In this document: positions 1,111 to 61,625 of the stretch, in pieces
Numbering within the stretch: the stretch's first letter is position 1
Layout of the letters: each line of letters starts with the position of its first letter
Origin: a virus
Direction: 5' to 3' (one strand)
DNA length: 64,000 nt
Virus record (IMG/VR): IMGVR_UViG_3300043570_003617
Made by a program: the position numbers and the translations under genes
Notes under the pieces: model-generated
Databases searched by the model: none
Seen by the model: the letters and a program-made list of their open reading frames with translations, nothing else
What the model was told of the DNA's origin: nothing

Positions 1111-1125
1111 AAACTATATATAAAA

Positions 1126-2864: not shown

Positions 2865-2934
2865 AAAGTTATTATTTTTAATTATATATTGGTATTATCT
2901 GCTTACCTTTTATTGATGACATAGAGATATAAAC

Positions 2935-3187: not shown

Positions 3188-6100
3188 ATGTGGACATACA
3201 ATAGTACTTATAACAAATGGTCATCAACTGATGATAAACTTATTAAAAGTGATTTTGATTTCTTAAAACAAGAATTAAAAGCTACAAGATTTTATGCTAA
3301 ATCTCTTAGTGGTGCTACTTATTTACCTATTAACGGAACCGATGATGTTTATGATATATTGGGAAAATATCAACCAAGAAATTGGTATATTAGTGTAGCT
3401 GGTTCTCCTTATAGTATTACAACAATACCTTCACAACACGCTACTCCAATAGATATTGATACTTCTTATAACTACTATACTAAATATCTATCCGAATATG
3501 GATTAACACTTAAAAATCTATTTACTCCAAATAGATTGATAAAAGATTCAATGGGTAACTACAACTATGTTGATGTTGCTACAACTGATTTATTAGATCT
3601 TTCAATTAGTGATATAAATCTTACTATAGATGGTGTTAGATTAATTAATGGTCAAAAAGTTTTAGTTAAAAACCAAATAAGTAATATTACTTTACTAAAT
3701 ACAATTAATCCAAATACTTATTTCACAGGAAACTATATAATTATTCAAGATTTGGGAGGAACTGTTGAATATGAATATTATAATGAAGAAAATGGAATTT
3801 ATAAATATTCAAATGGGAGTTTAGTTAGAGATGTTGATTTAGATGATTATAAAAGATGTATAAGATATAGCGTTTCTGTTAAATTGGGAACTAATAATAA
3901 AGGTAAACAATTTCACTTATCTAGATTATTAGATGGTTATTATCCAACTACTTCATTAAATCAACCAATTGAATTTAAAGAAAAACACAATTGGATACTA
4001 AGAAATAGAGTTGATTATAATAATTTATTTGAAATAAACTACTATGATGTAATTAAACACGGAACTCAATCTTATTCATTTGATGCTGTTATATATAACA
4101 TACCAACTAGAACAATATCTGTTGGTGAGTTTGGTGTTATATTAAATACACAAGAAGGTAAATCTAATATTATACCAAATAAATATAAAGTTAATCTTAG
4201 AGGTATTTCTGAAACTACTAACTATTATTGGATATGTGGTGATGAAAATACAGTTTTAAAAGTTAGAAAACACGATTTTAATATTGAAAGAATATTGACT
4301 GAAAATGTTCCTTCTTTACAACCGCTTATTGTTAAAACAAATCTTAAATCAATATCATTTTTTAATGATTTAAGAGGTGTTGTTGTTGGTGAGTTGAATA
4401 CAATTTTATACACTAAAAATGGTGGATACAAATGGGAAAGAATTGAACTTGATGATTTTAACACATTTAATTATAACAAAGTTTTATACACTACAAATAG
4501 TAGTTTCTTTATTGCTGGAAATGTTGGTGTTTTAATTGAAATGGTTGAAACTATAGGTGGTTGGACTGCTTATAAAAGAAGAGTTTCTAGAAAAATTGAT
4601 GAGGACGATGAGTACCTATTAGTTGATAATATAAATGATCTGTATAAAACAACTATCTCTACTTGGGGATTGAGTTATTCATATAGCACACAATCTATTC
4701 CTACTGATAAAGAATTACTTTTCTTAGCGTGTAATAATAATATTATATCAGCTTATGATATAAATAATTCTTTTAGTGCAGTAGGCACTGATTTTATTTA
4801 TTTTGATTTTGGAGCTGACTATGGAGATATTAAAAATATAACAAGAAGAAAAGAAACAAATTATTTTTACTTTACTGGAACTGATAAAATAAGTGGTGAA
4901 GATGGTGTTTTTTCATTTAATATTAGTAGTTTTAATTATCTAGGAATTGGTAATTCTTATTCTAATACTACTATTTCCTCAATTCCTGCTACATCTGAGT
5001 ATTCTAATATTTATCCAAATGAAATTTTCGATTACAATGGAGATGAATTATTAATATGTGGTAATACTTCTTTATTGAAATTATCTGGATATAGTCCAAT
5101 TAATTTTACAACATTAGATTCGACATTTGAAGATAAGTTAAAATCTAAACTTTTAGTTTTAGATTATGATATAGCAAGTAAGTTAAATTTCTTCACAGAT
5201 GCTGGTGAATATAGATTACCAAACTCTTTGAATTTTAATAGTGATAATATTACTACAACTGGATCTTATATAGGATTCAAGCCTATTGAACACGCTCTTA
5301 CAACAACCAATACTGGTACTTATTCTGAGAAAAACTGGATAGAGTATTGGAGAGATAGAGAAAAAACTTTTGAATTTTATAATAATAATCCACTTAGTGA
5401 TTCTAGTAAAGTTTTAATATCTACAACATTCTCACATGTTTTTTACGGATCTTCTTTTAGTTTTGTCGGATCTAATATCACTGGTTCTGCTTCACAACTG
5501 GTTAAATTGGCACCTAAAATATTAGATAAAAATTCAAGTAGATATAATGGATATGGTTTGACAGCAATATCAGCACCTACATCAAATCATAATATTTTCT
5601 TATATGATTATTTAATGGTTGTTAGATTATTGTCAAGTACCTTCTCTGCTAATGTTGGTGATGTTATGAAACTTGAATCAGTGGTTGTTGATGGTGAGTT
5701 TGTTATTAACAAAATAAGAACATTCGGTAGTTATAAATACGCTTATATGTTTACTGATTTTAATCAAAATATAATAACTGACTTACAATCAACAACTCAT
5801 AGTGTAACTTTAACTAACTTAAATAAATATACAACATCTGATGAATTAAAATCTAGATTTAATCAACATCCAATATCAACTGGATATAAATTAGATACTG
5901 TTAATTATGTACCAACTAGTTCAACTAAATGGACTTGGGGAATGCCAAACATTTCTGGTAATATTTTTTCTACACTCGGTGTTGGTTTTAATTACACAGC
6001 TGTTGGTGGTAATTTACTTATAAATATAAATTGTTTATCAAATTCTGGAACTAATTATAGTTCAGACTTTGCTACTCTTCCAGTAAATACTTTATGGAAG

Positions 6101-9100
6101 TTTAGTGATGTTTCAGGAAATTATATTTACTACACACAGACATCTCTTGGATCTAATTTACCAATATCATACTATGAGTTTCCACTTATTTATGTGAGTG
6201 GTACTCCTTGGATTCCTTTATCTGGTGATATTATAACAGTTGAAGCTATAGGTCTTGGTGGTTATTTAGGATCAAGTTTATTTGAAATAAGTGCTAGATT
6301 TAATAGCGATACTTCTTACTATAACTTACAAACTTCATTTAATACAGGATCTGTATTACCTATAGTAAATCAAGGATTTACTTATAGTTTCTCAGGTGGT
6401 GTTTCGGCTTCTTCTGTAATTACAAGTTTAACTTATAGTTTCTCAGGTGGTTTTTCATCAAGTAATGTTCCAGTAGTAATTGCTGGTAAAGGAACAATTG
6501 GCTTTAGTGGTGATGGTGGTCCTGCTCCAGATGCTGAATTAGATCGTCCGATGGGATTAGCTTACGACATGAATGGTAATTTGTATATAACAGATACTAA
6601 TAATGGTCGTCTTAGAATGGTTGATCTTAGTACTACAATAAATACTATTTCTGGTAACAATCCAGGTTCTTATGGACCAGATTCAGTTTTTGCCTTCTCT
6701 AGTGATTTATACGAACCTAGTGATGTTGCTATTGATAATATTAATAGAATCTATATATCTACAATTTCTGGAAGTGGATCAGCTCCATATAATGTTGTTA
6801 GAAGAATAGATGTAAGTGGAACAATAGATGTTTACGCTGGAACTCCTGGTATTGGAGGTGCATATGGTGGTAATGGAGTTCCTGCTAGTATGTCTAAATT
6901 AAATTCACCACAGGCTATTTGTATTGACAATAACAATAATATTCTTTATATATGTGACACATATAATAATAAAGTTAGAAAGGTAGACTTAATTGCGGAT
7001 ATTATAACTGATTTTGCTGGTACTGGATTAATTGGTTTTGGTGGTGATGGTGGACTCGCTTTAGGAGCTAGATTAAATCTTCCAACCGGAATCACTGTTG
7101 ATTCAATTGGCGATGTTTATATAGCAGATAGTGGTAATAATAGAATCCGAAAAGTTTCCTTTTTAAGTGGTAGAATAAGTACTGTGGCTGGAAACGGAGC
7201 ACCGGGATATGGTGGTGATGGTATGCCTGCTGTATTAACTAGATTGAATAATCCAACTGGTGTCGCTGTTGATATGGCTGGTAATATGTATATTGCTGAT
7301 AAAGATAATAATAGAATAAGATTAGTTAAACCAAACGGTATAATATCAACATTTACATTAACTCCTGGTATTGAAAAACCTAATAAGGTAATAATTACTC
7401 CAACACAAGATATAGCTTATTCAACTTCGTTTAGTGATCTAGGTGGATCTGTTTATTTTCTTGAAAAACCAGAAGTATCAGCTACTTTATCAGGTCAATT
7501 AACATTTTTACCAGTTGATGGAGACATTTCTACTTTAGAGTTAGATGGTGTTCCATATGTTTATACTTTTAGAAATAGCCCTTCATTACCTGGTGATATA
7601 CAAACTAGTACTACAATCAATAATGTGTTAAACAATCTTTTAACCGGTATAACACCTTCATTATCATCATCAAGTGTTTTAGGTGATTTTATTAATTTAG
7701 AAGCAGCTTCTGGATATGGATCAACACCAAATGGAAATTCAAATTGGTTTTTAAATTTTTATTCAATTGTTACAACACCTGAAACTTTAGCAACTTTAAG
7801 TGGATCAATGAGTTTTCTACCATTAGATGGAGATACTTCTATATTAACTTTAAATGGCACATCAAGTACATATACTTTTAGGGATACACCATCGTTATCA
7901 AATGAGATTCAAATAGTTGGTACAATTAATGGGTGTTTGAATAAACTTATACTTGGTATAACATCATCTGCTATTTCAACATATTTATTATCAACTTCTG
8001 TTACTTCAACAAGCTTTAATTTAATATCTGCTTCTGGATATGGATCAATTCCTAATTCAACAATAGCTACATTGAACCCATCTTGGTCATTATCTTTATC
8101 TTCAACTACTGGTGGTGCTTTTGCTGAAGTTTCAAATGATATGGTTTATACTAGTGGTTTCTTAAAATTTGGATATTCACCAACATATAATTTAATGGAT
8201 TATTTAACAAGTATAAATAACATCGGTGATCCAAATCCAACATTCTATGCTAGTAAAGAATATTTAGCAATGCCGGAATATAGAGGTATACCATTTGGAA
8301 GTTTAACATCATCAACAGCTTATATAGACACTAATGGAATGACTTATTCTGGTGGTGCTATGTCAATGAATGGTAATAAAATACTACTTGGTGATGATTT
8401 AAAATTAGAATGGGATAGTGTATTCATAAATACATTTGTTGATGTTAATATTTATGGATCGGCTACATACTCAACTACTAAATTATTAGTTCTTAATAAA
8501 TATTATGATTTTAATAATTCAGCATATGCTATTGAATTTCATAAAAGACTAAACTTTACACTTGGTGATGCTAATATACTATCTGGTGGATCATTAGACA
8601 TTATTTCAAGAAGACATTTATATCAAATCAGTGAAGATTTACAATATTTAAATAATATACAAAGATCTGAAGGTAAAATAACTGAAGTATATCAAGGACT
8701 AACATATTCAAATTATGAAAATGAACTAAACTTTAAAATACCAACTGATTCTTATGCTAGGATTTTACTTTCAGACGCTGAAACTATTCAATCATTAAGT
8801 TCAATAATATATGTAGATGATAAAAATGAGTTAGCTCTTAATATAACTAAATTATCCAAAGAGTATATTGTTCCAATTTCTAATACTTCTAATTTTGCAG
8901 GAAAATTATATATTTCTTGTTCAGAAAAACATGATTTATTTACTGGAGATTCAGCTGTTTTAGAATTCAATGGAGGAAGTCAATCATCACAAACTCTTAA
9001 TCAACAATATTTTGGATATCATGTTATTACAAAAATAACAGATTTTGACTTTGTTACAGATATTGACTATGGATCTTCTGTGTTGGTTGGAAATGATATT

Positions 9101-10465
9101 GGATCTGTTAAATATATTAAACAAGATCCTTTCTTTAACTATCAACCAGTTGATATAATAGACTATGGTGTTGATCTTAAAGGAGAACAATCAATTGAAT
9201 TATCTGTTGAAAATATTAAATTATCAGGAACTAAATATAGCTTAATAGATGTTGATTATGAAAAATATAGATTTAGATTAATTGATGGATTAAACTTTGA
9301 AACCTTGAATCTTTCTTACCAATGGTTGCTTGAAGCTGAAATATCAGGAGCTGTTATTGGATTAGATGGCGCTGATATTGTTTGGTATAAAGGAACTTGG
9401 GAATCAGGAAGATGGTTTGGTGGTACATGGCAATCAGGTGTTTGGATGTCAGGTGATTGGTATGGTGGTGTTTGGAATTCAAATATAACAACTGATAAGA
9501 TATTATCTGTTAAAGTTGATACAAAAACCAATGATAAAGAACAATCACTATGGTTCGATGGTAGATGGTATGATGGTACTTGGAACAATGGTACTTGGAA
9601 TAACGGTAGATGGTATGGCGGTACTTGGAATAATGGTATGTGGAATAAAGGTATTTGGAATGATGGTACTTGGAACAATGGTTTGTTTGAAGGTGGTATA
9701 TGGGTATTAGGTACTTGGAATTCTGGCACTTTCAATACTAATAGTGAGCCTGCTTATTGGTTAGATGGTCAATGGAAAGGCGGTGACTTTGAAAATGGTA
9801 TGTGGTATAACGGAAACTGGGAACAAAAGAATGGTTTGTCTAGATTCGGAACAAATGCCTTCAACAGTAGAACAGCTACTTGGCATGGTGGTAAATGGAT
9901 TAGTGGTAGTTTCTACTCTAAATTACTAACTGATATTAATGGAAATCCGGATGTTTCTGAAACTCATAAGTACTCTATTTGGAAGACAGGTCAATGGTCA
10001 TCTGGAGAGTGGTATGGTGGTATTGCTTATAATATGGATTTCAAAACAGGAACTTGGTATGGTGGTATATTAGAAGATATTCAAATAGTTGGTATTGACA
10101 CCACTGAAAATACATTTATTCTGAATGGTATATTTAAGTTTAATTTAGGAGATACTATTACTATAATTAATAATCAAGTTAATAATATCTACTCGGTATT
10201 TGGTTCTAATTCTAGTCCAAGTAAATATATAATTTTAAAACAAGACGAAGATATTGTAAACGAAAGAACTATTATTTATGTTAATAGAAATTTATCAGCT
10301 ATTGGATCAGCCGTTGCTTCACCAGTAAATACTGGATTAAGAGTAGTTAGTAGATTTAAGAATCTAAACTGGAAATCAGGTATATGGACAAATGGTATAT
10401 TTGAGAATGGACTTTGGGAAGGTGGTATCTGGTATAATGGTATATTTGAAGCTACTTGGTCATAA
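3188..10465 (+). CDS. giant 2425-aa virion-associated repeat protein with an NHL-repeat propeller, a duplicated ~110-aa domain and a C-terminal Trp-pentapeptide (G-x-W-x-x) repeat region
   Basis: Uninterrupted 7.3 kb ORF. NHL-like blades (DRPMGLAYDMNGNLYITDTNNGRLRMVDL; LNLPTGITVDSIGDVYIADSGNNRIRKV) lie at ~nt 6490-7330. A tandem duplicated domain (ATLSG..FLP.DGD.S.L.L.G..YTFR..PSL) lies at ~7470-8080. Period-5 repeats GTWNNGTWNNGRWYGGTWNNGMWNKG occupy ~9300-10465. Confidence 0.9.
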   Translation: MWTYNSTYNKWSSTDDKLIKSDFDFLKQELKATRFYAKSLSGATYLPINGTDDVYDILGKYQPRNWYISVAGSPYSITTIPSQHATPIDIDTSYNYYTKYLSEYGLTLKNLFTPNRLIKDSMGNYNYVDVATTDLLDLSISDINLTIDGVRLINGQKVLVKNQISNITLLNTINPNTYFTGNYIIIQDLGGTVEYEYYNEENGIYKYSNGSLVRDVDLDDYKRCIRYSVSVKLGTNNKGKQFHLSRLLDGYYPTTSLNQPIEFKEKHNWILRNRVDYNNLFEINYYDVIKHGTQSYSFDAVIYNIPTRTISVGEFGVILNTQEGKSNIIPNKYKVNLRGISETTNYYWICGDENTVLKVRKHDFNIERILTENVPSLQPLIVKTNLKSISFFNDLRGVVVGELNTILYTKNGGYKWERIELDDFNTFNYNKVLYTTNSSFFIAGNVGVLIEMVETIGGWTAYKRRVSRKIDEDDEYLLVDNINDLYKTTISTWGLSYSYSTQSIPTDKELLFLACNNNIISAYDINNSFSAVGTDFIYFDFGADYGDIKNITRRKETNYFYFTGTDKISGEDGVFSFNISSFNYLGIGNSYSNTTISSIPATSEYSNIYPNEIFDYNGDELLICGNTSLLKLSGYSPINFTTLDSTFEDKLKSKLLVLDYDIASKLNFFTDAGEYRLPNSLNFNSDNITTTGSYIGFKPIEHALTTTNTGTYSEKNWIEYWRDREKTFEFYNNNPLSDSSKVLISTTFSHVFYGSSFSFVGSNITGSASQLVKLAPKILDKNSSRYNGYGLTAISAPTSNHNIFLYDYLMVVRLLSSTFSANVGDVMKLESVVVDGEFVINKIRTFGSYKYAYMFTDFNQNIITDLQSTTHSVTLTNLNKYTTSDELKSRFNQHPISTGYKLDTVNYVPTSSTKWTWGMPNISGNIFSTLGVGFNYTAVGGNLLININCLSNSGTNYSSDFATLPVNTLWKFSDVSGNYIYYTQTSLGSNLPISYYEFPLIYVSGTPWIPLSGDIITVEAIGLGGYLGSSLFEISARFNSDTSYYNLQTSFNTGSVLPIVNQGFTYSFSGGVSASSVITSLTYSFSGGFSSSNVPVVIAGKGTIGFSGDGGPAPDAELDRPMGLAYDMNGNLYITDTNNGRLRMVDLSTTINTISGNNPGSYGPDSVFAFSSDLYEPSDVAIDNINRIYISTISGSGSAPYNVVRRIDVSGTIDVYAGTPGIGGAYGGNGVPASMSKLNSPQAICIDNNNNILYICDTYNNKVRKVDLIADIITDFAGTGLIGFGGDGGLALGARLNLPTGITVDSIGDVYIADSGNNRIRKVSFLSGRISTVAGNGAPGYGGDGMPAVLTRLNNPTGVAVDMAGNMYIADKDNNRIRLVKPNGIISTFTLTPGIEKPNKVIITPTQDIAYSTSFSDLGGSVYFLEKPEVSATLSGQLTFLPVDGDISTLELDGVPYVYTFRNSPSLPGDIQTSTTINNVLNNLLTGITPSLSSSSVLGDFINLEAASGYGSTPNGNSNWFLNFYSIVTTPETLATLSGSMSFLPLDGDTSILTLNGTSSTYTFRDTPSLSNEIQIVGTINGCLNKLILGITSSAISTYLLSTSVTSTSFNLISASGYGSIPNSTIATLNPSWSLSLSSTTGGAFAEVSNDMVYTSGFLKFGYSPTYNLMDYLTSINNIGDPNPTFYASKEYLAMPEYRGIPFGSLTSSTAYIDTNGMTYSGGAMSMNGNKILLGDDLKLEWDSVFINTFVDVNIYGSATYSTTKLLVLNKYYDFNNSAYAIEFHKRLNFTLGDANILSGGSLDIISRRHLYQISEDLQYLNNIQRSEGKITEVYQGLTYSNYENELNFKIPTDSYARILLSDAETIQSLSSIIYVDDKNELALNITKLSKEYIVPISNTSNFAGKLYISCSEKHDLFTGDSAVLEFNGGSQSSQTLNQQYFGYHVITKITDFDFVTDIDYGSSVLVGNDIGSVKYIKQDPFFNYQPVDIIDYGVDLKGEQSIELSVENIKLSGTKYSLIDVDYEKYRFRLIDGLNFETLNLSYQWLLEAEISGAVIGLDGADIVWYKGTWESGRWFGGTWQSGVWMSGDWYGGVWNSNITTDKILSVKVDTKTNDKEQSLWFDGRWYDGTWNNGTWNNGRWYGGTWNNGMWNKGIWNDGTWNNGLFEGGIWVLGTWNSGTFNTNSEPAYWLDGQWKGGDFENGMWYNGNWEQKNGLSRFGTNAFNSRTATWHGGKWISGSFYSKLLTDINGNPDVSETHKYSIWKTGQWSSGEWYGGIAYNMDFKTGTWYGGILEDIQIVGIDTTENTFILNGIFKFNLGDTITIINNQVNNIYSVFGSNSSPSKYIILKQDEDIVNERTIIYVNRNLSAIGSAVASPVNTGLRVVSRFKNLNWKSGIWTNGIFENGLWEGGIWYNGIFEATWS

Positions 10466-10476
10466 ATTATAATTTA

Positions 10477-10493
10477 AATTTAATATATACAAT
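10477..10493 (+). promoter_or_regulatory. putative promoter AATTTAATATATACAAT abutting the ATG
   Basis: Identical 17-mer also abuts the ATG of 19097; a very similar box abuts 20812. Confidence 0.5.
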
Positions 10494-11789: not shown

Positions 11790-11883
11790 AGTTATTATAT
11801 TTATTAAATATTGTTTGTTTGCTTTTCAAAGAAACAGAAGATGTAAATAATTATATATAGATTATAAAATAATTGATTAATAA

Positions 11884-14610: not shown

Positions 14611-14656
14611 TGCGTCTTTTGATTTTAATATATAAGTTAAAATAAAAAGATACATT

Positions 14657-15828: not shown

Positions 15829-17019
15829 ATGATTTTTATTTACAATAGATTTTTGAGACCAATAACATCAAGTGATAATAATATTCAAGTGTTGGATAAT
15901 ACTGGTTCTGTGGTTTATACAATAAATCCATTTTCTGTAGGAACTACAAGAGTTTCAAATAATGTATTAGAAATTTCTTTTAAGAGTGGTAAAACAATAT
16001 CTATTCCATTTTCTTCAATTAATGAGTCTAAAACAGCTTTAAGTTTATTTCAATCACAACTTGATACACTTTTAGAAAAGACTCCAACATTAATGGATGT
16101 TCAAATTAAAAATTATATTGATAGTATATCTTCTTCGGGAACCTCAGGTAAAAGTGGAACTTCAGGCGTTGATGGTAATTTCTACGGATCATCGGGATCA
16201 TCGGGAACTTCAGGTGTTAATGGATCAAGTGGATCTTCTGGTACTTCTGGATCATCAGGTACAAGTGGATCTTCTGGTACTTCTGGATCATCAGGTACAA
16301 GTGGATCTTCTGGTACTTCTGGATCTTCTGGTACTTCTGGATCATCAGGCACAAGTGGATCTTCTGGTATATCAGGTATGAGTGGATCTTCCGGTACATC
16401 AGGTATGAGTGGATCTTCCGGTACATCAGGTATGAGTGGGTCTTCTGGTACATCAGGTATGAGTGGATCATCAGGTACAAGTGGATCTTCTGGGTCATCA
16501 GGTACAAGTGGATCTTCTGGGTCATCAGGTACAAGTGGATCTTCTGGTTCAAGTGGGTCATCTGGGACATCAGGTTCTGCTGGTACATCTGGTACATCAC
16601 CTTCAACCAATTTAACACTTAGTGGTGATTTAGTTGTTAGTGGTCAATCAACATTTACAGAAGTAACGGAAGTTATAAATTCAACACCATCAGGTGCTAC
16701 GGCTTCAACAGTAACTTATGACTTTTCTTCTGGTAATATTTGGTATCATGGAACTGCATCACAGAATTATATAGCAAATTTTATAAATATACCTACTACA
16801 AATTTTAGAACAATAACTACAACTGTTGTTATTGCACAAGGCGGAACTGCTTATATACCTACGACCGTGAAGATTAATGGAACTGCTTCTACTGTTAAAT
16901 GGTCTGGTGGAACTGCATCAGGTAGTGCTAATAAAGTTGATATAATTGGATTTAGTTTTATCTATACAAATAGTGGTATTCCTACTCAAGTTTTAGGTCA
17001 AATAAATTCATTTAATTAA
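15829..17019 (+). CDS. collagen-like (Gly-X-Y) repeat protein, probable fibre component
   Basis: About 160 residues of (GSSGTS)n / GMSGSSGTS triplet repeats, followed by a globular Thr-rich C-terminal domain. Confidence 0.8.
   Translation: MIFIYNRFLRPITSSDNNIQVLDNTGSVVYTINPFSVGTTRVSNNVLEISFKSGKTISIPFSSINESKTALSLFQSQLDTLLEKTPTLMDVQIKNYIDSISSSGTSGKSGTSGVDGNFYGSSGSSGTSGVNGSSGSSGTSGSSGTSGSSGTSGSSGTSGSSGTSGSSGTSGSSGTSGSSGISGMSGSSGTSGMSGSSGTSGMSGSSGTSGMSGSSGTSGSSGSSGTSGSSGSSGTSGSSGSSGSSGTSGSAGTSGTSPSTNLTLSGDLVVSGQSTFTEVTEVINSTPSGATASTVTYDFSSGNIWYHGTASQNYIANFINIPTTNFRTITTTVVIAQGGTAYIPTTVKINGTASTVKWSGGTASGSANKVDIIGFSFIYTNSGIPTQVLGQINSFN
16130..16615. repeat. tandem nucleotide repeats (18/36-nt units) encoding the collagen-like tract
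   Basis: Near-identical units ggatcttctggtacttctggatcatcaggtacaagt are repeated. They generate spurious ORFs in other frames and on the opposite strand. Confidence 0.85.
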
Positions 17020-17020
17020 T

Positions 17021-19078
17021 ATGTTATCAAGAATTAGCAATTTTTCAGGACCTTTATCAATTCTATTCAAAAGAAATTTAGATCAAAATAATTTGATTTT
17101 AGATTTACGATCAAAAATTGGACTATCTGAAATAACTTGGCAAGACCAATCATCATATAATAACGACGCTACTTTTTATGGTTCAGTTGTTACGGATTCC
17201 ATAAATGGTGAAATTGTTCTTTCATTAGATGGTGTAAATGAATACATATTTCCAACAAATGGATTTGGTAATATTTTAGACACAGGGTTTACTTATGAAG
17301 TTTGGGCTCGTCCGGGTACCTCATCAAATGGAGTTCTTTTATTAGAGACTGGGCAAGCAGCAACAAGTAGTCTTTGGAATGACAATCAAATGGCTTTTGT
17401 TTCAAATAAAATTAATGTAGGATTATTTGATCCAAATGACTTCACACCTAATTATATTACAGGTCCTACATTCTCGGTTGACACATGGTATAATATAGTA
17501 ATGACATATGATGGCACCACACTAATTGAATATGTTAATGGTGTTTCAGTTGGTAGTAGTATTGGTGTTAAGTCAAATCCATCAAGTACTTATTTATCTT
17601 TAGGTAGACCAGGTTTGGCTACTAATTACCTTGGTGGTTCAACAGGTCATTTTAAAGGTTATATAGGTGTTTGGAGAATATGGGATGGCCCTCTTGATAA
17701 CACTGAAATTCTTTTAAATTATAACACAAACAGAGAGGCATATGATACATTTATTACAAATAACACAATACTTTATTTAGATGCTGGATCTGCGTCATCT
17801 TATCCAGGTTCTGGTAGTGTTTGGTATGATTTAAGTGTACAGGATAATGATGCTACACTGACAAATACAACATATAATAGTATAAATGGTGGTTATTTTA
17901 CATTTAATGGTGTTGTAAATAGCAAAGGAGCATTGACATCATCCAAATATAATGTGGTTTACTCTGGTAAAACTGTATTTGTTACTGCTTATCTATCAAG
18001 TAACATGATTAATAATACTTATAGAGCAATTTTAGGTTCCTCAGCGGGTGTTAGAAATTTTAACTTTTATTTATATAGAAATATCAGTGGTAATTATCAG
18101 TTGCATTACTCGGCTAATAGTGTTGGTGGATTGAGTGATACTTTAACTTCTTTTACACCAGGTACTTGGTTCACTGCTGCAGTGACACAAACTACTGGTG
18201 GTTTAATGAGTTATTACTTTAATGGTCAACCAGTTGGTACTGGAACCGCTGCCTTTTCTCAATATTTATCAGGAAGTACTGAGAATGTTGCTGTTGCTGA
18301 TAATTTTTGGGATGGTAGAATTGGTTTGGCTTCTGTTTATAAAGTTGCTTTATCATCTTCTGAGATATTACAAAATCACAATGGTGTTAAGAATAGATAT
18401 TCCAATTTTGTAGATACTAACTTAGTACTTTATTTTAATCCTAATAAAGATTTAAATTATCCAAATTCTATTAATGATTTAAGTGGTAATTCATTAAATG
18501 GTACTTTATCAAATAACACATTTACGGCACCATATCTAACTTTTAATGGATCAAGTTCAACAGTATTGGTATCTGATAATTCATTATTAGAACCAGGAAC
18601 TGGTGATTTCAGTGTTGAAGTTTGGGTTAATTATTCGGTAATTGCGGGTGGTAGTAGATGTGTGCTTAGTAAAACAGATGGGCCTAATAGTGTGGAATGG
18701 GGATATGGTATTAGAACTAACTCATCCGGTTTGACCTATATGGAAGTTGGTAATGGAACTACAACATTAAATTCACCAACATATACCGTAACAACAAACA
18801 CTTGGTATCAAATTGTTGGTGTATTTACTAATGTTGCGTCAAACTCAATTGCACTTTATGTAAATGGAGTGAGTCAAGGTACTTCAACTTCTCATTCATT
18901 TACCAGTGTTAAAAATACAACACATAATATATCAATCGGTTCATTTGATAACAATATTGGTGGTTATGGTCAGTGGTTTAACGGAAAAATGGGTATAGTG
19001 AGAATTTATAACTCTGCTTTAACTGCTTCTGATGTTTCTAAAAACTTTGAAGCTGATAGAGACATTTATGAAATTTAA
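17021..19078 (+). CDS. LamG/concanavalin-A-like lectin repeat protein (probable fibre or receptor-binding)
   Basis: Three copies of the jelly-roll signature: DTWYNIVMTYDGTTLIEYVNGVSVG, GTWFTAAVTQTTGGLMSYYFNGQPVG and NTWYQIVGVFTNVASNSIALYVNGVSQG. Confidence 0.55.
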   Translation: MLSRISNFSGPLSILFKRNLDQNNLILDLRSKIGLSEITWQDQSSYNNDATFYGSVVTDSINGEIVLSLDGVNEYIFPTNGFGNILDTGFTYEVWARPGTSSNGVLLLETGQAATSSLWNDNQMAFVSNKINVGLFDPNDFTPNYITGPTFSVDTWYNIVMTYDGTTLIEYVNGVSVGSSIGVKSNPSSTYLSLGRPGLATNYLGGSTGHFKGYIGVWRIWDGPLDNTEILLNYNTNREAYDTFITNNTILYLDAGSASSYPGSGSVWYDLSVQDNDATLTNTTYNSINGGYFTFNGVVNSKGALTSSKYNVVYSGKTVFVTAYLSSNMINNTYRAILGSSAGVRNFNFYLYRNISGNYQLHYSANSVGGLSDTLTSFTPGTWFTAAVTQTTGGLMSYYFNGQPVGTGTAAFSQYLSGSTENVAVADNFWDGRIGLASVYKVALSSSEILQNHNGVKNRYSNFVDTNLVLYFNPNKDLNYPNSINDLSGNSLNGTLSNNTFTAPYLTFNGSSSTVLVSDNSLLEPGTGDFSVEVWVNYSVIAGGSRCVLSKTDGPNSVEWGYGIRTNSSGLTYMEVGNGTTTLNSPTYTVTTNTWYQIVGVFTNVASNSIALYVNGVSQGTSTSHSFTSVKNTTHNISIGSFDNNIGGYGQWFNGKMGIVRIYNSALTASDVSKNFEADRDIYEI

Positions 19079-20796: not shown

Positions 20797-20811
20797 TTTA
20801 ATATATAAAAT
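20795..20811 (+). promoter_or_regulatory. putative promoter AATTTAATATATAAAAT abutting the ATG
   Basis: Variant of the recurring motif. Confidence 0.45.
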
Positions 20812-21123: not shown

Positions 21124-21132
21124 ACTAAAAAT

Positions 21133-21166
21133 GAAAACTTTTCTATAACAAGAAAAGTTTTTTTGT
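21133..21166 (+). terminator. rho-independent terminator
   Basis: Stem GAAAACTTTTCT / AGAAAAGTTTTT followed by a T-run. Confidence 0.7.
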
Positions 21167-21502: not shown

Positions 21503-21538
21503 GAGATGATGAAAACATGTTAGAGTAATATATACTCT

Positions 21539-22605: not shown

Positions 22606-24354
22606 ATGCTTATTAGTGAATTAGGAATTAGAGGATTCAAAAGTTATGGTAATAACGAACAAGTCTTAAAATTAAATACAGAAAAAGGAGAATTAATTCT
22701 TCTTGTTGGAAATAACGGAGCAGGTAAATCATCTTTGTTAGATTCCTTCGATTACACACTTTATGGTAAAGTTAGAGGTCGCAAAAAGAAATGGGCCACT
22801 TTATCAACACTTCCAAATAGAATTAATGGTGAACTACTTAATAGAATTAAATTTAATTCTTTAGGTACTGATGTTGAAATTAAACGAGGTATTTCACCTG
22901 GTGTCTTAGAACTTACCGAGAATGGAGTAGTCAACGAAAGAGCCGGTAAAGGTAATGTTGATGAAAAGATTGAAAAGTATATCGGTATGGATATCGAAAC
23001 TTTCAAATCTTTTATTTCTATGTCAATAAACGACTTCAAAAATTTTATTTCATTATCAAATGAAGAAAAACAACTTCTTTTAGATAAGTTATTCAACTTA
23101 GAAGTTATTAATATTTTAAATGGTATCTTAAAAGATATCGCTAAAAACAATAAAGTTAGAGCCGCTTCTTTTGATGCTGAAATTAGAACTTTAGATGATT
23201 CAATTTTATCTATTCAAAGGTCTATTGATAAAGCTATTGAAAGACAAAAAGAAGAAGCTAGATTAGCTTTAGAAAGAGAGAAAGAAGATATTCAAGCTGA
23301 GATTGATAGAATCACTGGTGAAATGAATTCTAAAAAAGATGATTATAAATCTTTAAGAGATAAAATTGATAAAATCAAAGAAAAAGAAACTGAACTAAAC
23401 AATGAATTGGATAATGAGAAAAAGCAATATATTAATACACAAAATGACATTAAAAATGTACAACGAGAAATTGACTTATATGATTCTGGTAAATGTCCCA
23501 CTTGTAGAACAGATTTTAATTCTGATCACTTTGTTGCGTTAAGAGATTCTTTTGTTGAAAAGAAATTAGGTTTTGAAAATATCAAACTTGAGATTGAGGC
23601 CAATATTACTAAAGTTAAAGAAAGACAAGTTAAATTAAAATCTTTATCTGAATCTACAACAACTGCTTTTAATGATTTAAGTTATTTATTAAAGAGTTAC
23701 AAATCAGATATTGATAAACTAGTTCAAAAGAAAGCTAGTCAAACTGTACCGGTTAATACAACTCCTTCTGTTAATATTCAAGAGTTTCAAAATACAATTG
23801 AAGAACTTGAAGATAAGAAAATAGTAAGTAAAGATAATATCACCGTATGTAAAGAAAAGGATCTTTACTACAAAGAGATGAATCGAATCTTTGGTGAAGA
23901 TGGTGTTAAGAAATCTATCATCTCTGGAATAATCAAACCAATAAATCACTTTATTGCTGAGAATATTAAAAAGATGAGTTTACCATTTGAAGTAAGATTA
24001 GATGAGACTTTTACTGCTGAGATTAAACAATTAGGTTCACCAATTGAACATGATTCTTTATCAACTGGTGAAACTAAAAAAGTTAATATTAGTATCTTAA
24101 TTGCTTACTTGAAATTGATTAGAACTAAGCGTCATATCAATATACTCTTCTTAGATGAGGTTTTCTCATCAATTGATATCGAAGGTATAGATTCTATTTT
24201 GGCTCTCTTAAAATCGTTTGCAAATGATTATAACATCAATATCTTTGTTGTCCATCATGCTATTTTGAACCAAGAGATGTTTGATAGAATATTGAAGATT
24301 AATAAAGAGGTTTTCTCTTCAATAGAAGAAGTTGATTTAAGTTATGGTGGTTAA
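22606..24354 (+). CDS. SbcC/Rad50-like recombination ATPase (T4 gp46-like)
   Basis: N-terminal Walker A GNNGAGKSSLLD, long coiled coil, CPTC zinc hook, C-terminal signature LSTGETKKV and D-loop LFLDEVFSSID. Same architecture as T4 gp46, which also has CPTC. Confidence 0.75.
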   Translation: MLISELGIRGFKSYGNNEQVLKLNTEKGELILLVGNNGAGKSSLLDSFDYTLYGKVRGRKKKWATLSTLPNRINGELLNRIKFNSLGTDVEIKRGISPGVLELTENGVVNERAGKGNVDEKIEKYIGMDIETFKSFISMSINDFKNFISLSNEEKQLLLDKLFNLEVINILNGILKDIAKNNKVRAASFDAEIRTLDDSILSIQRSIDKAIERQKEEARLALEREKEDIQAEIDRITGEMNSKKDDYKSLRDKIDKIKEKETELNNELDNEKKQYINTQNDIKNVQREIDLYDSGKCPTCRTDFNSDHFVALRDSFVEKKLGFENIKLEIEANITKVKERQVKLKSLSESTTTAFNDLSYLLKSYKSDIDKLVQKKASQTVPVNTTPSVNIQEFQNTIEELEDKKIVSKDNITVCKEKDLYYKEMNRIFGEDGVKKSIISGIIKPINHFIAENIKKMSLPFEVRLDETFTAEIKQLGSPIEHDSLSTGETKKVNISILIAYLKLIRTKRHINILFLDEVFSSIDIEGIDSILALLKSFANDYNINIFVVHHAILNQEMFDRILKINKEVFSSIEEVDLSYGG

Positions 24355-25975: not shown

Positions 25976-25998
25976 GGTTATATATTAAATATATAAAG
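25976..25998. promoter_or_regulatory. palindromic divergent promoter region (GGTTATATATTAAATATATAAAG)
   Basis: Inverted arms TTATATAT / ATATATAA. The motif AATTTAATATATAAC reads on the minus strand (toward 24427..25950) and TTAAATATATAAAG on the plus strand (toward 26019). Confidence 0.45.
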
Positions 25999-28884: not shown

Positions 28885-28900
28885 ATGATATATTAAATTT
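28885..28900 (-). promoter_or_regulatory. putative promoter (minus strand AAATTTAATATATCATA) for the glycosyltransferase gene
   Basis: Recurring motif ~13 nt upstream of the minus-strand ATG at 28869. Confidence 0.4.
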
Positions 28901-32603: not shown

Positions 32604-32633
32604 ATTTCTATATATTAATTTATTGTTTTTTTC

Positions 32634-37244: not shown

Positions 37245-37312
37245 TTATTGATTGAATTCTTTTATGTATATATTATTTATTAAGACGTTCTTTGTTATTA
37301 AACTTTATTTAA

Positions 37313-37330
37313 TTATCTTTGTAAAATAGT
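37313..37330 (+). promoter_or_regulatory. putative promoter with Bacteroidota-like -7 box TATCTTTG (TAnnTTTG), and TTTG ~19 nt further upstream
   Basis: TTAATTATCTTTGTA 15-mer shared (14/15 identical) with the region upstream of ligA at 61613..61625. Ends 0-3 nt before the Sir2 ATG. Confidence 0.45.
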
Positions 37331-39028: not shown

Positions 39029-39212
39029 TAGAGACGTTATTGATATATTTGGTCAATTACTAAATGGTAATAAAGAAATTATGATGTTGAAGGCTAGACA
39101 AACTGGTAAGTCAAGTGTTGCCTCTCATTTAATGGACTGGAAAAAACTATATGATAAACATGAAAGAGTTAGATTAAGAAAAGAAACCATAAAACGACTT
39201 TTTAATATATAA
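38964..39212 (+). CDS. short ORF with terminase-large-subunit-like Walker A segment (EIMMLKARQTGKSSVASHLM)
   Basis: Resembles the T4 gp17 region [30 protein letters not shown]. At 82 aa it is far too short for a terminase. The track start at 38955 is GTG; the first ATG is at 38964. Confidence 0.35.
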   Translation: MFASIEVKLKDEKKKLKEFMNNRDVIDIFGQLLNGNKEIMMLKARQTGKSSVASHLMDWKKLYDKHERVRLRKETIKRLFNI

Positions 39213-50037: not shown

Positions 50038-50074
50038 AGAAAACCCTTTGGTTAATTTCAAAGGGTTTTTTTAT
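50038..50074 (+). terminator. rho-independent terminator
   Basis: Stem AACCCTTTG / CAAAGGGTT with loop GTTAATTTC, followed by TTTTTTT. Confidence 0.7.
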
Positions 50075-50086
50075 TTTAAAATATTT

Positions 50087-51084: not shown

Positions 51085-51101
51085 AAATTTAATATATAAA
51101 G
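51085..51101 (+). promoter_or_regulatory. putative promoter AAATTTAATATATAAAG
   Basis: Recurring motif ~25 nt upstream of the ATG at 51126. Confidence 0.45.
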
Positions 51102-51125: not shown

Positions 51126-51539
51126 ATGAATAATTTTAAGGACTTTCAAGAAATTCTGCTTCTAGAAAAAAGAATCGACCAAATATCTTCAACTATTGAA
51201 GTTACTTTTGGATTTGATGTAATCAAAACAACACATGCTGATGATAGATCTGACTTTGCTAAAAGAGGATTAGGTGGTAATCAAAATCCTATTTCAAATG
51301 CTGAAATGTCTGAATTTGTTTCTTACTTTAAGAGGGATATATCTGAAGGTATTGCTACAGGTGATATAGTGCATCAAACAGAATTTGTTATTAGAAGTTT
51401 AGATAGAGAGTTATCTATGGCTATAATAGCGGAAGAAGTTACTCAAAACTATTGGAAGTTAGTTATTAAAACTGTTTTTAGAGAATCTGATGAACATAAA
51501 TTAAAAACTGGAGTAGACCAATTAATTTATGAAAAATAA
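51126..51539 (+). CDS. hypothetical protein (MNNFKDFQEI N-terminus)
   Basis: 137-aa ORF with promoter motif upstream. Confidence 0.55.
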   Translation: MNNFKDFQEILLLEKRIDQISSTIEVTFGFDVIKTTHADDRSDFAKRGLGGNQNPISNAEMSEFVSYFKRDISEGIATGDIVHQTEFVIRSLDRELSMAIIAEEVTQNYWKLVIKTVFRESDEHKLKTGVDQLIYEK

Positions 51540-51549
51540 AAAACAGGCG

Positions 51550-51601
51550 AGTATCTGAATCGTTCCTGCCTGTTTATTAAAACCAGTATCTAAATCGTTC
51601 C
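51550..51601. repeat. 17-nt direct repeat AGTATCT[G/A]AATCGTTCC (2 copies, 35-nt spacing) in the convergent intergenic region
   Basis: Copies at 51550-51566 and 51585-51601 with one mismatch. The first copy lies in the loop of an ACAGGC/GCCTGT hairpin. Confidence 0.6.
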
Positions 51602-61291: not shown

Positions 61292-61307
61292 TTATATATT
61301 AAATTCT
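61292..61307 (-). promoter_or_regulatory. putative promoter (minus strand GAATTTAATATATAAG)
   Basis: Recurring motif ~22 nt upstream of the minus-strand ATG at 61271. Confidence 0.45.
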
Positions 61308-61612: not shown

Positions 61613-61625
61613 CTATCTTTGTATC
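61613..61625 (+). promoter_or_regulatory. putative promoter with -7-like box TATCTTTG (TAnnTTTG)
   Basis: TTAACTATCTTTGTA is 14/15 identical to the sequence upstream of the Sir2 gene. Confidence 0.45.

What the first reader, a model, noticed from the sequence alone, without database searches (positions are those of the whole stretch)
10477..10493. Conserved TATATA-type promoter box placed 0-30 nt from start codons on both strands
The motif AATTTAATATATA[AC][AG] recurs immediately upstream of many genes: 10494 and 19097 (identical 17-mer ending at the ATG), 20812, 51126, 14657, 2970, 1126, and on the minus strand upstream of 61271, 40954, 37244, 28869 and 25950 (the last within a palindrome, 25976..25998, that also reads toward 26019). 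Its position relative to the ATG implies leaderless or 5-25-nt leaders without Shine-Dalgarno sequences. The box is not sigma-70-like and not the T4 late TATAAATA, but it is reminiscent in AT content. It may be the recognition site of a phage-encoded sigma or late transcription factor.
Basis: seen in the sequence. Interest (0 to 1): 0.65.

Follow-up and report, generated by a model that had tools for sequence, protein, structure and literature searches.

The report
Late promoter box of a huge phage
The repeated TTAATATATA box is a real, strongly conserved phage promoter, most likely this huge Bacteroidota phage's version of the phage T4 late promoter, and about a third of its copies in this window (over half in a complete relative) sit so close to the start codon that the mRNAs should have no leader at all.

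Summary
Observation confirmed. AATATATA (extended aaaTT-AATATATA-[AC]) is the most enriched intergenic 8-mer in the window. There are 16 copies in 3.3 kb of intergenic DNA against 8 in 60.7 kb of coding DNA. Dinucleotide shuffles of the intergenic DNA itself give 2.7±1.7. Every intergenic copy points at a same-strand start codon.

The spacing is bimodal, not an even 0-30 nt: 4-5 nt or 17-28 nt.

The window comes from a T4-superfamily huge phage. It is syntenic with the 642-kb record LR756502.1, whose predicted host phylum is Bacteroidota. That complete genome shows the same box (29-fold intergenic enrichment) and the same spacing: 116 copies at 4-8 nt, almost none at 9-17, about 67 at 18-29.

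The box is kept upstream of orthologues in LR756502.1 and in 21 of 25 metagenomic relatives. These relatives encode a very conserved homologue of gp55, the T4 late sigma factor. I found no multisubunit-RNAP catalytic motif.

More distant relatives (Lak-A1, Tenacibaculum phage pT24) are enriched for AATAAATA, a common T4 late-promoter variant that differs from this box by one base.

Virion genes, and genes with a T4-like capsid-targeting N-terminus, preferentially carry the box.

Best reading: a clade-specific variant of the gp55-type late promoter, placed where the host -7 element sits, producing either leaderless mRNAs or short leaders without Shine-Dalgarno sequences. No transcription start sites have been mapped.

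The parts
10482..10489 (+). Box AATATATA (extended 10477-10493), 4 nt before ATG 10494: class I, predicted leaderless. The gene product begins MIKKYSQFIKE, which resembles a T4 capsid-targeting sequence.
   Evidence: conserved at 4 nt in LR756502.1
19085..19092 (+). Box AATATATA, 4 nt before ATG 19097 (class I). The 17-mer is identical to the one at 10477. The product begins MIKRYLEFIKE.
20800..20807 (+). Box AATATATA, 4 nt before ATG 20812 (class I).
21527..21534 (+). Box AATATATA with weaker flanks, 4 nt before ATG 21539 (class I). The gene is T5orf172/MUG113-like.
32609..32616 (-). Box AATATATA, 5 nt before the ATG at 32603 of a 1211-aa protein (class I).
   Evidence: conserved at 4 nt in LR756502.1
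44316..44323 (-). Box AATATATA, 5 nt before the ATG at 44310 of a 47-aa ORF (class I). That ORF overlaps the start of 43158-44192, whose product begins MKKNLKKYNDFINEE.
1115..1122 (-). Palindromic TATATATA inside a 15-nt divergent intergenic region (1111-1125). It lies 4 nt before the ATG at 1110 (minus strand) and 3 nt before ATG 1126 (plus strand).
   Evidence: the LR756502.1 orthologue has AATATATA at 4 nt
2883..2890 (-). Box AATATATA, 21 nt before the ATG at 2861 of a PhoH-like gene (class II).
   Evidence: 18 nt in LR756502.1
2939..2946 (+). Box AATATATA, 23 nt before GTG 2970 (class II). That 71-aa ORF heads the 2425-aa NHL-repeat gene.
11852..11859 (+). Box TATATATA, 24 nt before ATG 11884 of a 908-aa gene (class II).
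14627..14634 (+). Box AATATATA, 22 nt before ATG 14657 (class II).
   Evidence: 21 nt in LR756502.1
25979..25986 (-). Box AATATATA, 28 nt before the ATG at 25950 (class II). It is one arm of the back-to-back pair. The 507-aa product begins MLKRYSDFINE.
   Evidence: the LR756502.1 orthologue has the box at 5 nt
25988..25995 (+). Box AATATATA, 23 nt before ATG 26019 (class II). It is the other arm of the pair. The gene belongs to the Exo_endo_phos family.
28887..28894 (-). Variant box AATATATC, 17 nt before the ATG at 28869 of a glycosyltransferase gene (class II).
37267..37274 (-). Box AATATATA, 22 nt before the ATG at 37244 of a 1536-aa gene (class II).
39204..39211 (+). Box AATATATA, 25 nt before ATG 39237 of a phosphohydrolase gene (class II). 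It overlaps the last codons of the upstream ORF.
   Evidence: 24 nt in LR756502.1
40978..40985 (-). Box AATATATA, 23 nt before the ATG at 40954 (class II).
51091..51098 (+). Box AATATATA, 27 nt before ATG 51126 (class II).
61293..61300 (-). Box AATATATA, 21 nt before the ATG at 61271 of a 1067-aa gene (class II).
   Evidence: An exact AATATATA lies about 20-24 nt upstream of the orthologue in 21 of 25 IMG/VR loci and in LR756502.1.
61614..61621 (+). Comparison class: host-type -7 element TATCTTTG, 4 nt before ATG 61626 of the NAD-dependent DNA ligase gene. Similar elements lie at 61348-61355 (4 nt before 61360), 37314-37321 (9 nt before the Sir2-like gene 37331) and 45342-45349 (23 nt before 45373).

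Best explanation
The box aaaTT-AATATATA-[AC] is the promoter of the phage's own, non-early transcription class. It is a clade-specific variant of the T4-type late promoter: a single 8-10-bp all-A/T element at the -10 position with no -35 element. The inferred mechanism is that a phage-encoded minimal sigma of the gp55 family directs the host RNA polymerase core to it.

The 8-mer occupies roughly -12 to -5, the same place as the host Bacteroidota -7 element TAnnTTTG. Transcription would therefore start at the A about 5 nt downstream. Two architectures follow.
- Class I: the box lies 4-5 nt (up to 8) before the ATG. The transcript begins at or next to the AUG, giving a leaderless mRNA.
- Class II: the box lies 17-28 nt before the start codon. 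This gives an A-rich leader of about 13-24 nt with no Shine-Dalgarno sequence, and matches the spacing of T4 late promoters.

Shown here: the motif, its enrichment, orientation, spacing and conservation; the presence of a gp55 homologue in relatives; and the association with virion genes.

Inferred: the transcription start position, the identity of the recognising factor, the late timing, and leaderless translation.
For: (1) Enrichment and orientation in the window.

(2) The complete relative LR756502.1 (642 kb) is syntenic with the window.
- AATATATA is its most enriched intergenic 8-mer: 215 copies in 45 kb against 106 in 597 kb.
- Of 339 copies, 216 lie within 80 nt upstream of a same-strand start. 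Spacing counts are 55, 29, 17, 10 and 5 at 4-8 nt, a near-empty gap at 9-17 nt, then about 67 at 18-29 nt. The reverse orientation is flat.
- Without relying on gene calls, ATG follows the box at offset 4 in 60 of 339 copies, against about 5 per offset as background.
- Only ATG is enriched there, not GTG or TTG. Of the 135 such ATGs at offsets 4-7, 117 open ORFs of at least 50 codons.

(3) Geometry.
- In Flavobacterium johnsoniae the -7 element spans -12 to -5, with 4-5 nt to the transcription start (PMC6847099).
- The phage's own TAnnTTTG boxes show the same 3-7 nt peak.
- An A sits 5 nt after the box in 84% of class II sites.

(4) Conservation.
- 10 of about 14 strong boxes are kept upstream of orthologues at 33-82% protein identity.
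- 21 of 25 IMG/VR loci keep the exact box before the homologue of the 1067-aa gene.
- The bimodal spacing appears again in those loci.

(5) Recognition factor.
- LR756502.1 217128-217493 encodes a 121-aa protein that matches a T4 gp55 HMM (E 1.7e-4) and phrog_234 'late sigma transcription factor' (E 1e-5, sole hit).
- It matches the gp55 family by hhalign at 93.8% probability, E 1.8e-7.
- Its homologues in Xanthomonas phages Xoo-sp13 and XacN1 are annotated as late sigma factors.
- It is 92-98% identical in the 80 IMG/VR loci kept, including contigs that also carry the closest relatives of window genes.
- Iyer et al. 2021 place the Lak megaphage among T4-like jumbo phages that have a minimal sigma and gp33 but no RNA polymerase (PMC7824862).
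- T4-like gp17, 18, 20, 4, 25, 41, 43, 44, 46, 47, UvsX and UvsW are present.
- No DFDGD catalytic motif was found.

(6) Continuity with T4.
- The T4 late promoter is an 8-bp TATA box at the -10 position with no -35 element, and A at -13 is a common variant (PMC2988020).
- Lak-A1 and Tenacibaculum phage pT24 are enriched upstream of genes for AATAAATA. LR756504 and LR756501 are enriched for AATATATA.
- In T4, TATAAATA lies 21-28 nt before the ATG, which equals class II spacing.

(7) Gene class.
- The portal, large terminase, gp25, gp5 and sheath-operon genes carry the box.
- 21 of 42 genes of at least 600 aa carry it, against 2 with the host box. The 160-240 kb virion-gene region has 42 boxes and 1 host box. 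The two box densities are anticorrelated (rho -0.40, p 0.02).
- 15 of 25 genes with a T4-like capsid-targeting N-terminus carry the box, against 217 of 930 other genes (odds ratio 4.9, p 1e-4). None of the 25 has the host box.
Against: - No transcription start or expression-timing data exist for any phage of this clade. The start site, the late timing and the leaderless state are all inferred.
- The gp55 homologue was found in relatives, not in the 64-kb window. The window's own genome outside these 64 kb is not available.
- gp33 was not searched for. The only sliding-clamp (gp45) hit was marginal (E 0.015).
- With strict T4 geometry (box at -13 to -6), a 4-nt spacing would put the start on the T of the ATG. 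The model therefore needs the box one base closer to the start than in T4.
- The box also precedes non-structural genes: PhoH, a glycosyltransferase, a phosphohydrolase, an Exo_endo_phos nuclease and a T5orf172 gene. It also lies further upstream of some replication genes. It may therefore mark all post-early genes rather than strictly late ones.
- The high A frequency 5 nt after the box sits in a generally A-rich tract. Position +10 is equally A-rich.
Confidence: 0.7

Rival explanations
1. The box is a promoter, but it is read by a different phage factor. Candidates are a full-length sigma-70-family sigma, another DNA-binding activator, or a very divergent phage-encoded RNA polymerase. The phiKZ/AR9 virion polymerases, for example, recognise extended AT-rich consensus sequences with the start 6 nt downstream.
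For: - AR9 early promoters read AAATATATATTAT-(6N)-G+1, and phiKZ-like virion-polymerase promoters are AT-rich (PMC5312081).
- The window holds several giant ORFs of unknown function (1067, 1211, 1351 and 1536 aa) with no Pfam, PHROG-function or PDB match.
- Some huge phages encode their own sigma-70 (PMC7162821).
Against: - No DFDGD-type catalytic motif occurs in any ORF of LR756502.1 or the window.
- The clade is T4-like, and T4-like jumbo phages lack an RNA polymerase.
- The gp55 homologue is present and very conserved.
- The motif grades into the T4 variant AATAAATA in Lak-A1 and pT24.
- I did not screen for full-length sigma factors or for crAss-type polymerases.
Confidence: 0.14
2. The box is read by a host sigma factor, either the housekeeping sigma acting on a degenerate -7 element or a host alternative sigma, with no phage specificity factor involved.
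For: The box sits exactly where the host -7 element sits. It shares A-11, T-8 and T-6 with TAnnTTTG.
Against: - Three of the six near-invariant host positions (T-12, T-7, G-5) are mismatched.
- The phage carries a separate, well-conserved class of true TAnnTTTG promoters on different genes: ligase, Sir2 and UvsW.
- The densities of the two classes are anticorrelated.
- Genes with a capsid-targeting-like N-terminus never carry the host box.
Confidence: 0.06
3. The box is an archaeal or eukaryotic-style TATA box with the transcription start about 25 nt downstream. Class II genes would then be the leaderless ones, and the ATGs of class I genes would be mis-called.
For: - The sequence TTAATATATA resembles a TATA box.
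- Class II spacing (17-28 nt) equals a typical distance from TATA box to start site.
- TFIIB is listed among proteins encoded by some huge phages (figure legend, PMC7162821).
Against: - The sharpest feature of the data is an ATG exactly 4-5 nt after the box: 99 of 339 copies in LR756502.1. These ATGs open long ORFs whose N-termini align from residue 1 with orthologues. This model cannot explain that.
- T4 late promoters show the same 21-28 nt spacing with a bacterial mechanism.
- No archaeal-type polymerase motif was found.
Confidence: 0.03
4. The box is not a promoter. It would be a by-product of AT-rich intergenic composition, or a translation-initiation, RNA-processing or terminator signal.
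For: Intergenic DNA is 22% G+C. The 5' regions of mRNAs in Bacteroidota are A-rich (PMC6847099).
Against: - The box is about 6-fold above dinucleotide shuffles of the intergenic DNA itself.
- It has strict orientation.
- The exact 8-mer is conserved while the flanks diverge.
- The variable 17-28 nt distance in class II does not fit a ribosome-positioning signal.
- The box has no hairpin potential of its own.
Confidence: 0.03

Closest known systems
Bacteriophage T4 late promoter (TATAAATA, read by gp55 with gp33 and the gp45 sliding clamp)
   Same: - A single 8-bp all-A/T box at the -10 position, with an AT-rich downstream segment and no -35 element.
- Present on both strands.
- The 21-28 nt spacing to the ATG equals class II here.
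- A gp55-family sigma is encoded by relatives.
- The box drives virion genes and genes with a capsid-targeting-like N-terminus.
   Different: - The consensus is AATATATA with a TT extension upstream. That is one base from the T4 variant AATAAATA and two from TATAAATA.
- The gp55 homologue is shorter (121 against 185 aa) and lacks the T4 C-terminal region.
- About half the copies abut the ATG at 4-8 nt, predicting leaderless mRNAs, which the T4 region examined does not show.
- There are no Shine-Dalgarno sequences.
- About a quarter of all genes carry the box.
Bacteroidota housekeeping promoter (-33 TTTG / -7 TAnnTTTG)
   Same: The 8-mer has the same position relative to the predicted start (-12 to -5, with 4-5 nt to +1). 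It shows the same two spacing classes in this phage.
   Different: The sequence differs: there is no TTTG. It sits on a different set of genes.
AT-rich early promoters of phiKZ/AR9-type virion RNA polymerases
   Same: An extended, conserved AT-rich element containing ATATAT, with the start a few nucleotides downstream.
   Different: - Those phages encode multisubunit RNA polymerases, and none was detected here.
- AR9 5' UTRs are 26-491 nt long.
- The phage lineages are different.
Leaderless mRNAs of mycobacteria, Deinococcus and archaea
   Same: The promoter element sits at a fixed short distance from an AUG. Only ATG is used at that position. Leaders of 4-12 nt are avoided.
   Different: Here this is predicted for a phage gene class in a host phylum where most transcripts studied in F. 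johnsoniae have leaders (87% longer than 10 nt). It is unverified.

Membership tests
T4-type (gp55-dependent) late promoter | A single 8-bp A/T-only box about one helical turn upstream of the start (-10 position) | tested here: met
   The conserved 8-mer AATATATA lies 4-5 nt before leaderless-type ATGs. It occupies the position of the host -7 element. The start site itself is not mapped.
T4-type (gp55-dependent) late promoter | No conserved -35 element | tested here: met
   In 186 aligned LR756502.1 sites, the only strongly conserved positions upstream of the 8-mer (69-85%) are the TT immediately 5' of it; the others are 60% or less.
T4-type (gp55-dependent) late promoter | Consensus TATAAATA | tested here: not met
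   The consensus is AATATATA. TATAAATA and AATAAATA show no spacing peak in the window or in LR756502.1. This makes it a variant. AATAAATA is enriched in Lak-A1 and pT24.
T4-type (gp55-dependent) late promoter | The phage encodes a gp55-family sigma | tested here: inconclusive
   Met in the syntenic relative LR756502.1, in 80 IMG/VR loci, and in Lak and other huge phages. No such gene lies in the 64-kb window, and the rest of the window's genome is not available.
T4-type (gp55-dependent) late promoter | The gp33 co-activator and activation by the sliding clamp | not tested
   I did not search for gp33. The only gp45 hit was marginal (E 0.015). Iyer et al. report gp33 in group 2 jumbo phages.
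T4-type (gp55-dependent) late promoter | Drives late (virion) genes | tested here: inconclusive
   The box is enriched on virion genes, on genes of at least 600 aa and on genes with a capsid-targeting-like N-terminus. It also precedes several enzyme genes. No timing data exist.
Bacteroidota sigma-A promoter (TAnnTTTG) | Near-invariant T-12, A-11, T-8, T-7, T-6 and G-5 | tested here: not met
   The box has A-12, A-7 and A-5. True TAnnTTTG boxes form a separate class.
phiKZ/AR9-type virion-polymerase promoter | The phage encodes a multisubunit RNA polymerase | tested here: not met
   No DFDGD or NADFDGD motif occurs in any ORF of at least 50 aa in LR756502.1 or the window. This is a motif screen only.
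Leaderless mRNA | The transcript 5' end lies at the A of the AUG | not testable with these tools
   The only support is fixed spacing (4-5 nt), the geometry of the host -7 element, and the 9-17 nt gap.
Leaderless mRNA | The start codon is AUG, and there is no Shine-Dalgarno sequence | tested here: met
   ATG is enriched at offsets 4-7 while GTG and TTG are not. Shine-Dalgarno-like motifs are at background level.

The most novel reading that the evidence does not exclude
A whole clade of huge (about 0.4-0.7 Mb) Bacteroidota phages expresses roughly a quarter of its genes from a re-tuned gp55-type late promoter (AATATATA). More than a hundred of those genes per genome would be made as truly leaderless mRNAs. 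Together with leaderless early genes driven by TAnnTTTG boxes at the same spacing, this would give phage messages a translation-initiation mode that host messages rarely use. It could be linked to the ribosomal protein S21 and initiation-factor genes that these phages carry.
Probability: 0.45. Interest if true: 0.7.

Novelty: new variant of a known kind. Interest (0 to 1): 0.55.

Why it matters
Huge Bacteroidota phages (the Mahaphage and Lak groups) are uncultured, and I found no description of this motif or their promoters in the literature I searched.

- A sharply defined promoter would let gene classes and operon heads be annotated across hundreds of metagenomic genomes.
- It ties these phages mechanistically to T4 late transcription. 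It also gives a natural series for studying how gp55 specificity changes: TATAAATA, then AATAAATA, then AATATATA.
- The predicted mass use of leaderless mRNAs, in a host phylum that lacks Shine-Dalgarno sequences, is directly testable. It bears on how such phages take over translation.
- The box also marks about 25 genes per genome with T4-like capsid-targeting peptides. These are candidate injected proteins.

Tried and rejected
- My first EM motif run used information content times occupancy as its score. It drifted to a degenerate AT-rich motif (one search timed out). I replaced it with a likelihood criterion.
- Plain phmmer with T4 gp55 found nothing. A family HMM was needed.
- phmmer with T4 gp23, gp19, gp21, gp6 and others found no homologues at E<0.01, so the major capsid gene's promoter could not be checked.
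- Pfam, PHROGs and PDB sequence searches gave no function for the 1067-, 1211-, 1351- and 1536-aa proteins.
I did not pursue it.
- I considered that the identical 17-mers at 10477 and 19080 reflect a gene duplication. The proteins share only their first 11 residues, which turned out to be the capsid-targeting-like motif.
- Rfam and tRNA scans of the window were empty.
- Literature searches for this motif, or for promoters or leaderless mRNAs in huge or Lak phages, found no prior description. The library is incomplete.
Full report
**What the window is.** The window is 29% G+C and densely coded on both strands. It has no tRNA genes and no Rfam matches. Megablast against phage records hits only two uncultured phages of 642 and 635 kb. 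These belong to the huge-phage set of Al-Shayeb et al. 2020, in which all genomes above 634 kb fall in the 'Mahaphage' clade with Lak phages and have predicted Bacteroidetes hosts (PMC7162821). Gene by gene, the window is syntenic with LR756502.1 positions 301.6-360.2 kb, at 33-82% protein identity. LR756502.1 encodes T4-like gp17, gp18, gp20, gp4, gp25, gp41, gp43, gp44, gp46, gp47, UvsX and UvsW. The window itself has the gp46/Rad50-like gene at 22606-24354. This matches the 'group 2' T4-like jumbo phages of Iyer et al. 2021, which have no RNA polymerase of their own but carry a minimal sigma and gp33. That group includes the Lak megaphage (PMC7824862).

**Checking the observation.**
- The 15-mer with up to 2 mismatches occurs 25 times, against 10.8±3.7 in shuffles.
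- The core AATATATA occurs 16 times in 3.3 kb of intergenic DNA and 8 times in 60.7 kb of coding DNA.
- Dinucleotide-preserving shuffles of the intergenic regions themselves give 2.7±1.7, maximum 8 in 500. The motif is therefore not a by-product of AT-richness.
- A likelihood-based ZOOPS EM search, seeded from upstream 16-mers (every second position), returns AAAAATTTAATATATA as the best motif.
- A weight matrix built from the relative finds 14 window sites scoring at least 12, against 2.9 in shuffles. All 14 are intergenic or at a gene boundary.
- All intergenic copies point toward a same-strand start. For copies between co-directional genes this is 10 of 10.

**The spacing is bimodal.** In the window the 8-mer ends either 4-5 nt or 17-28 nt before the start codon.
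- 4-5 nt: 10494, 19097, 20812, 21539, 32603, 44310, 1110.
- 17-28 nt: 2861, 2970, 11884, 14657, 25950, 26019, 28869, 37244, 39237, 40954, 51126, 61271.

I fetched the whole of LR756502.1. AATATATA is again the most enriched intergenic 8-mer there, with 215 copies in 45 kb against 106 in 597 kb, a 29-fold enrichment. Of 339 copies, 216 lie within 80 nt upstream of a same-strand start. The spacing counts are 55, 29, 17, 10 and 5 at 4, 5, 6, 7 and 8 nt. Spacings of 9-17 nt are almost empty. About 67 copies lie at 18-29 nt. The opposite orientation gives a flat distribution.

Counting ATG triplets without any gene calls gives 60 of 339 at offset 4 and 39 at offset 5, against a background of about 5 per offset. 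GTG and TTG are not enriched there. Of the 135 ATGs at offsets 4-7, 117 open ORFs of at least 50 codons. The same two classes appear in 22 non-redundant loci from IMG/VR.

**Where the start site should be.** In Flavobacterium johnsoniae the -7 element TAnnTTTG spans -12 to -5, and probable promoters have 4-5 nt between it and the transcription start (PMC6847099). The phage's own TAnnTTTG boxes (mostly TATATTTG) show the same spacing peak at 3-7 nt and a second group at 15-35 nt. In the window, TATATTTG lies 4 nt before ATG 61360 and TATCTTTG lies 4 nt before the ligase ATG 61626.

The AATATATA 8-mer therefore occupies the position of the -7/-10 element, and the A of the ATG in class I genes falls at the expected +1. 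In class II sites the base 5 nt after the box is A in 84% of cases. That tract is generally A-rich, so this is only weak support. The empty 9-17 nt interval would correspond to leaders of about 4-12 nt. That is the pattern expected if mRNAs are either leaderless or have a leader long enough for normal initiation.

Shine-Dalgarno-like motifs precede 3% of window genes and 5% of LR756502.1 genes, which is at or below the rate in random windows. A 15-nt divergent intergenic region (1111-1125, AAACTATATATAAAA) leaves room for nothing but the box between two start codons. It is conserved in the relative.

**Conservation.**
- Ten of about 14 strong window boxes that have an orthologue in LR756502.1 are retained at a similar distance, although the surrounding intergenic sequence has diverged.
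- One box switches class: 25950 is at 28 nt in the window and 5 nt in the relative.
- A few boxes are gained or lost.
- Upstream of the 1067-aa gene (61271), 21 of 25 IMG/VR relatives at 42-78% protein identity have an exact AATATATA about 20-24 nt before the ATG. Three of the other four have TATATATA.

**Who reads it.** An HMM built from T4 gp55 homologues picks out one ORF in LR756502.1, at 217128-217493, with E 1.7e-4.
- Its only PHROG match is phrog_234, 'late sigma transcription factor', at E 1e-5.
- Profile-profile comparison with the gp55 family gives 93.8% probability and E 1.8e-7 over 95 columns. These include the invariant Y10, N13, F86, N93, A96 and T99 of T4 gp55.
- tblastn finds homologues in all six huge-phage records from the Al-Shayeb study, in 15 Lak phage records, and in cultured jumbo phages. 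Two of those, Xanthomonas phages Xoo-sp13 and XacN1, annotate the gene as a late sigma factor.
- In IMG/VR the protein is 92-98% identical in the 80 loci kept. These include contigs that also hold the closest homologues of window genes, which are only 64-78% identical. That degree of conservation fits a factor locked to hundreds of promoters.
- No ORF in LR756502.1 or the window has the DFDGD catalytic motif of multisubunit RNA polymerases.
- The window itself does not contain the sigma gene.

**Relation to the T4 late promoter.** T4 late promoters are an 8-bp TATA box at the -10 position with an AT-rich downstream segment and no -35 element. A at -13 is the commonest variant (PMC2988020). AATATATA is one base from AATAAATA.

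In 40-kb samples, Lak-A1 (sigma 39% identical) and Tenacibaculum phage pT24 are most enriched upstream of genes for AATAAATA and ATAAATAT. LR756504 (sigma 57% identical) and LR756501 (45%) are enriched for AATATATA. In T4's virion-gene region, 13 of 16 TATAAATA copies lie 21-28 nt before an ATG, which is class II spacing, and none abut one. So class II is the ancestral T4-like layout, and the abutting class I layout is the derived feature of this clade. Lak-A1 shows a few AATAAATA copies at 5-6 nt.

**Gene classes.** In LR756502.1 the portal, large terminase, gp25, gp5 and sheath-operon genes carry the box. Within 60 nt, gp43, gp44, gp46 and gp61 carry neither box type, and UvsW has a host-type box.
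- Among 42 genes of at least 600 aa, 21 have the box and 2 have the host box.
- The 160-240 kb virion-gene region has 42 boxes and 1 host box.
- The two box densities are anticorrelated (rho -0.40, p 0.02).

A further marker turned up. The products of 10494, 19097, 25950 and 44192 begin MIKKYSQFIKE, MIKRYLEFIKE, MLKRYSDFINE and MKKNLKKYNDFINEE. T4 internal proteins IPII and IPIII begin MKTYQEFIAE. This is the 10-residue capsid-targeting sequence. Its residues 4 and 7 direct targeting, and residues 8 and 10 direct cleavage by the prohead protease (PMC9026906). The pattern [YF]xx[FY][ILV]xE occurs in the first 20 residues of 25 LR756502.1 proteins, but only once at residues 40-60. Fifteen of those 25 genes have the box directly upstream, against 217 of 930 other genes (odds ratio 4.9, p 1e-4). 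None has the host box. Proteins built into proheads must be made late, so this supports a late class.

Against a strictly late class, the box also precedes PhoH, a glycosyltransferase, a phosphohydrolase, an Exo_endo_phos nuclease and a T5orf172-type gene. It also lies 60-70 nt upstream of gp44 and gp4. In the window the host-type boxes precede the Sir2-like gene, the NAD-dependent ligase and small ORFs.

**Verdict.** The box is most likely this clade's version of the gp55-type late promoter, placed at -12 to -5. It gives either leaderless mRNAs (about a third of the copies in the window, over half in LR756502.1) or short A-rich leaders without Shine-Dalgarno sequences. The start sites, the timing and the recognising factor are inferred, not shown.

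I found no description of this motif in the literature I could search. It is a new variant of a known kind. The predicted large-scale use of leaderless mRNAs is its most interesting and most testable aspect.

Noticed in passing
window 51533-51650, minus strand: A candidate small RNA gene lies in a convergent intergenic region. The terminator of the upstream gene is followed by a canonical host-type promoter (TAAATTTG, 20 nt, TATATTTG). About 75 nt of non-coding sequence follows, carrying GGAACGATT(T/C)AGATACT twice, each copy in a hairpin loop. It ends in a hairpin plus a T-run. The fold has a z-score of -3.2. There is no Rfam or tRNA match, and the repeat is absent from LR756502.1.
   Followed up: partly
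window 10494, 19097, 25950(-), 44192(-); 25 genes in LR756502.1: N-termini of the form M..(K/R)Yxx-F-I-x-E match the T4 capsid-targeting sequence of IPII and IPIII (MKTYQEFIAE). These are probably prohead-packaged, protease-processed proteins, possibly injected into the host. Most are served by the TATATA box.
   Followed up: partly
window 61348-61355 and 61614-61621 (+); 37314-37321 (+): Host-type TAnnTTTG elements lie only 4 nt (61360, ligase 61626) or 9 nt (Sir2-like 37331) before the ATG. Some presumed early genes are therefore also predicted to be leaderless. LR756502.1 shows the same 3-7 nt peak.
   Followed up: partly
LR756502.1 217128-217493; L042-L121: The gp55-like sigma is 92-98% identical in the 80 IMG/VR loci kept, while other shared proteins are 42-78% identical. 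It is only 121 aa long and lacks the region corresponding to the T4 gp55 C-terminus. It ends in a conserved ...GSNDG(M/Q)GLHSL.
   Followed up: partly
window 1111-1125: A 15-nt divergent intergenic region (AAACTATATATAAAA) lies between the ATG at 1110(-) and ATG 1126(+). It contains nothing but a palindromic TATATATA, possibly a bidirectional leaderless promoter. It is conserved in LR756502.1.
   Followed up: partly
window 28968-37244(-), 53982-61271(-), 3188-10465(+): A run of giant ORFs: 1211, 1536, 1351 (1270 from the first ATG), 1067 and 2425 aa. The first four have no Pfam, PHROG-function or PDB sequence match. The 2425-aa protein has NHL/teneurin-type repeats and a C-terminal W/G-rich repeat region. 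Nearby genes encode a collagen-repeat protein (15829-17019) and a LamG-domain protein (17021-19078). These are presumably virion or fibre proteins.
   Followed up: partly
window 45340-45349: AATATATA on the minus strand (51 nt from the ATG at 45288 of a toprim/primase-like gene) overlaps TATATTTG on the plus strand (23 nt from ATG 45373). The plus-strand host-type box is conserved in LR756502.1. Whether the minus-strand reading is functional is unclear.
   Followed up: no
window about 21130-21165 and about 50040-50080: Intrinsic-terminator-like hairpins with T-runs (aaaacttttctataacaagaaaagttttttt; aaaccctttggttaatttcaaagggttttttt) precede 21170 and 50087. In LR756502.1, GGGTTTTT/AAAAACCC is the second most enriched intergenic 8-mer class.
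   Followed up: no
L122 (Lak-A1), L125 (Tenacibaculum phage pT24): In these more distant relatives that carry a gp55 homologue, the most enriched upstream 8-mers are AATAAATA and ATAAATAT, not AATATATA. Promoter and sigma appear to have changed together within the clade. This rests on 40-kb samples only.
   Followed up: partly
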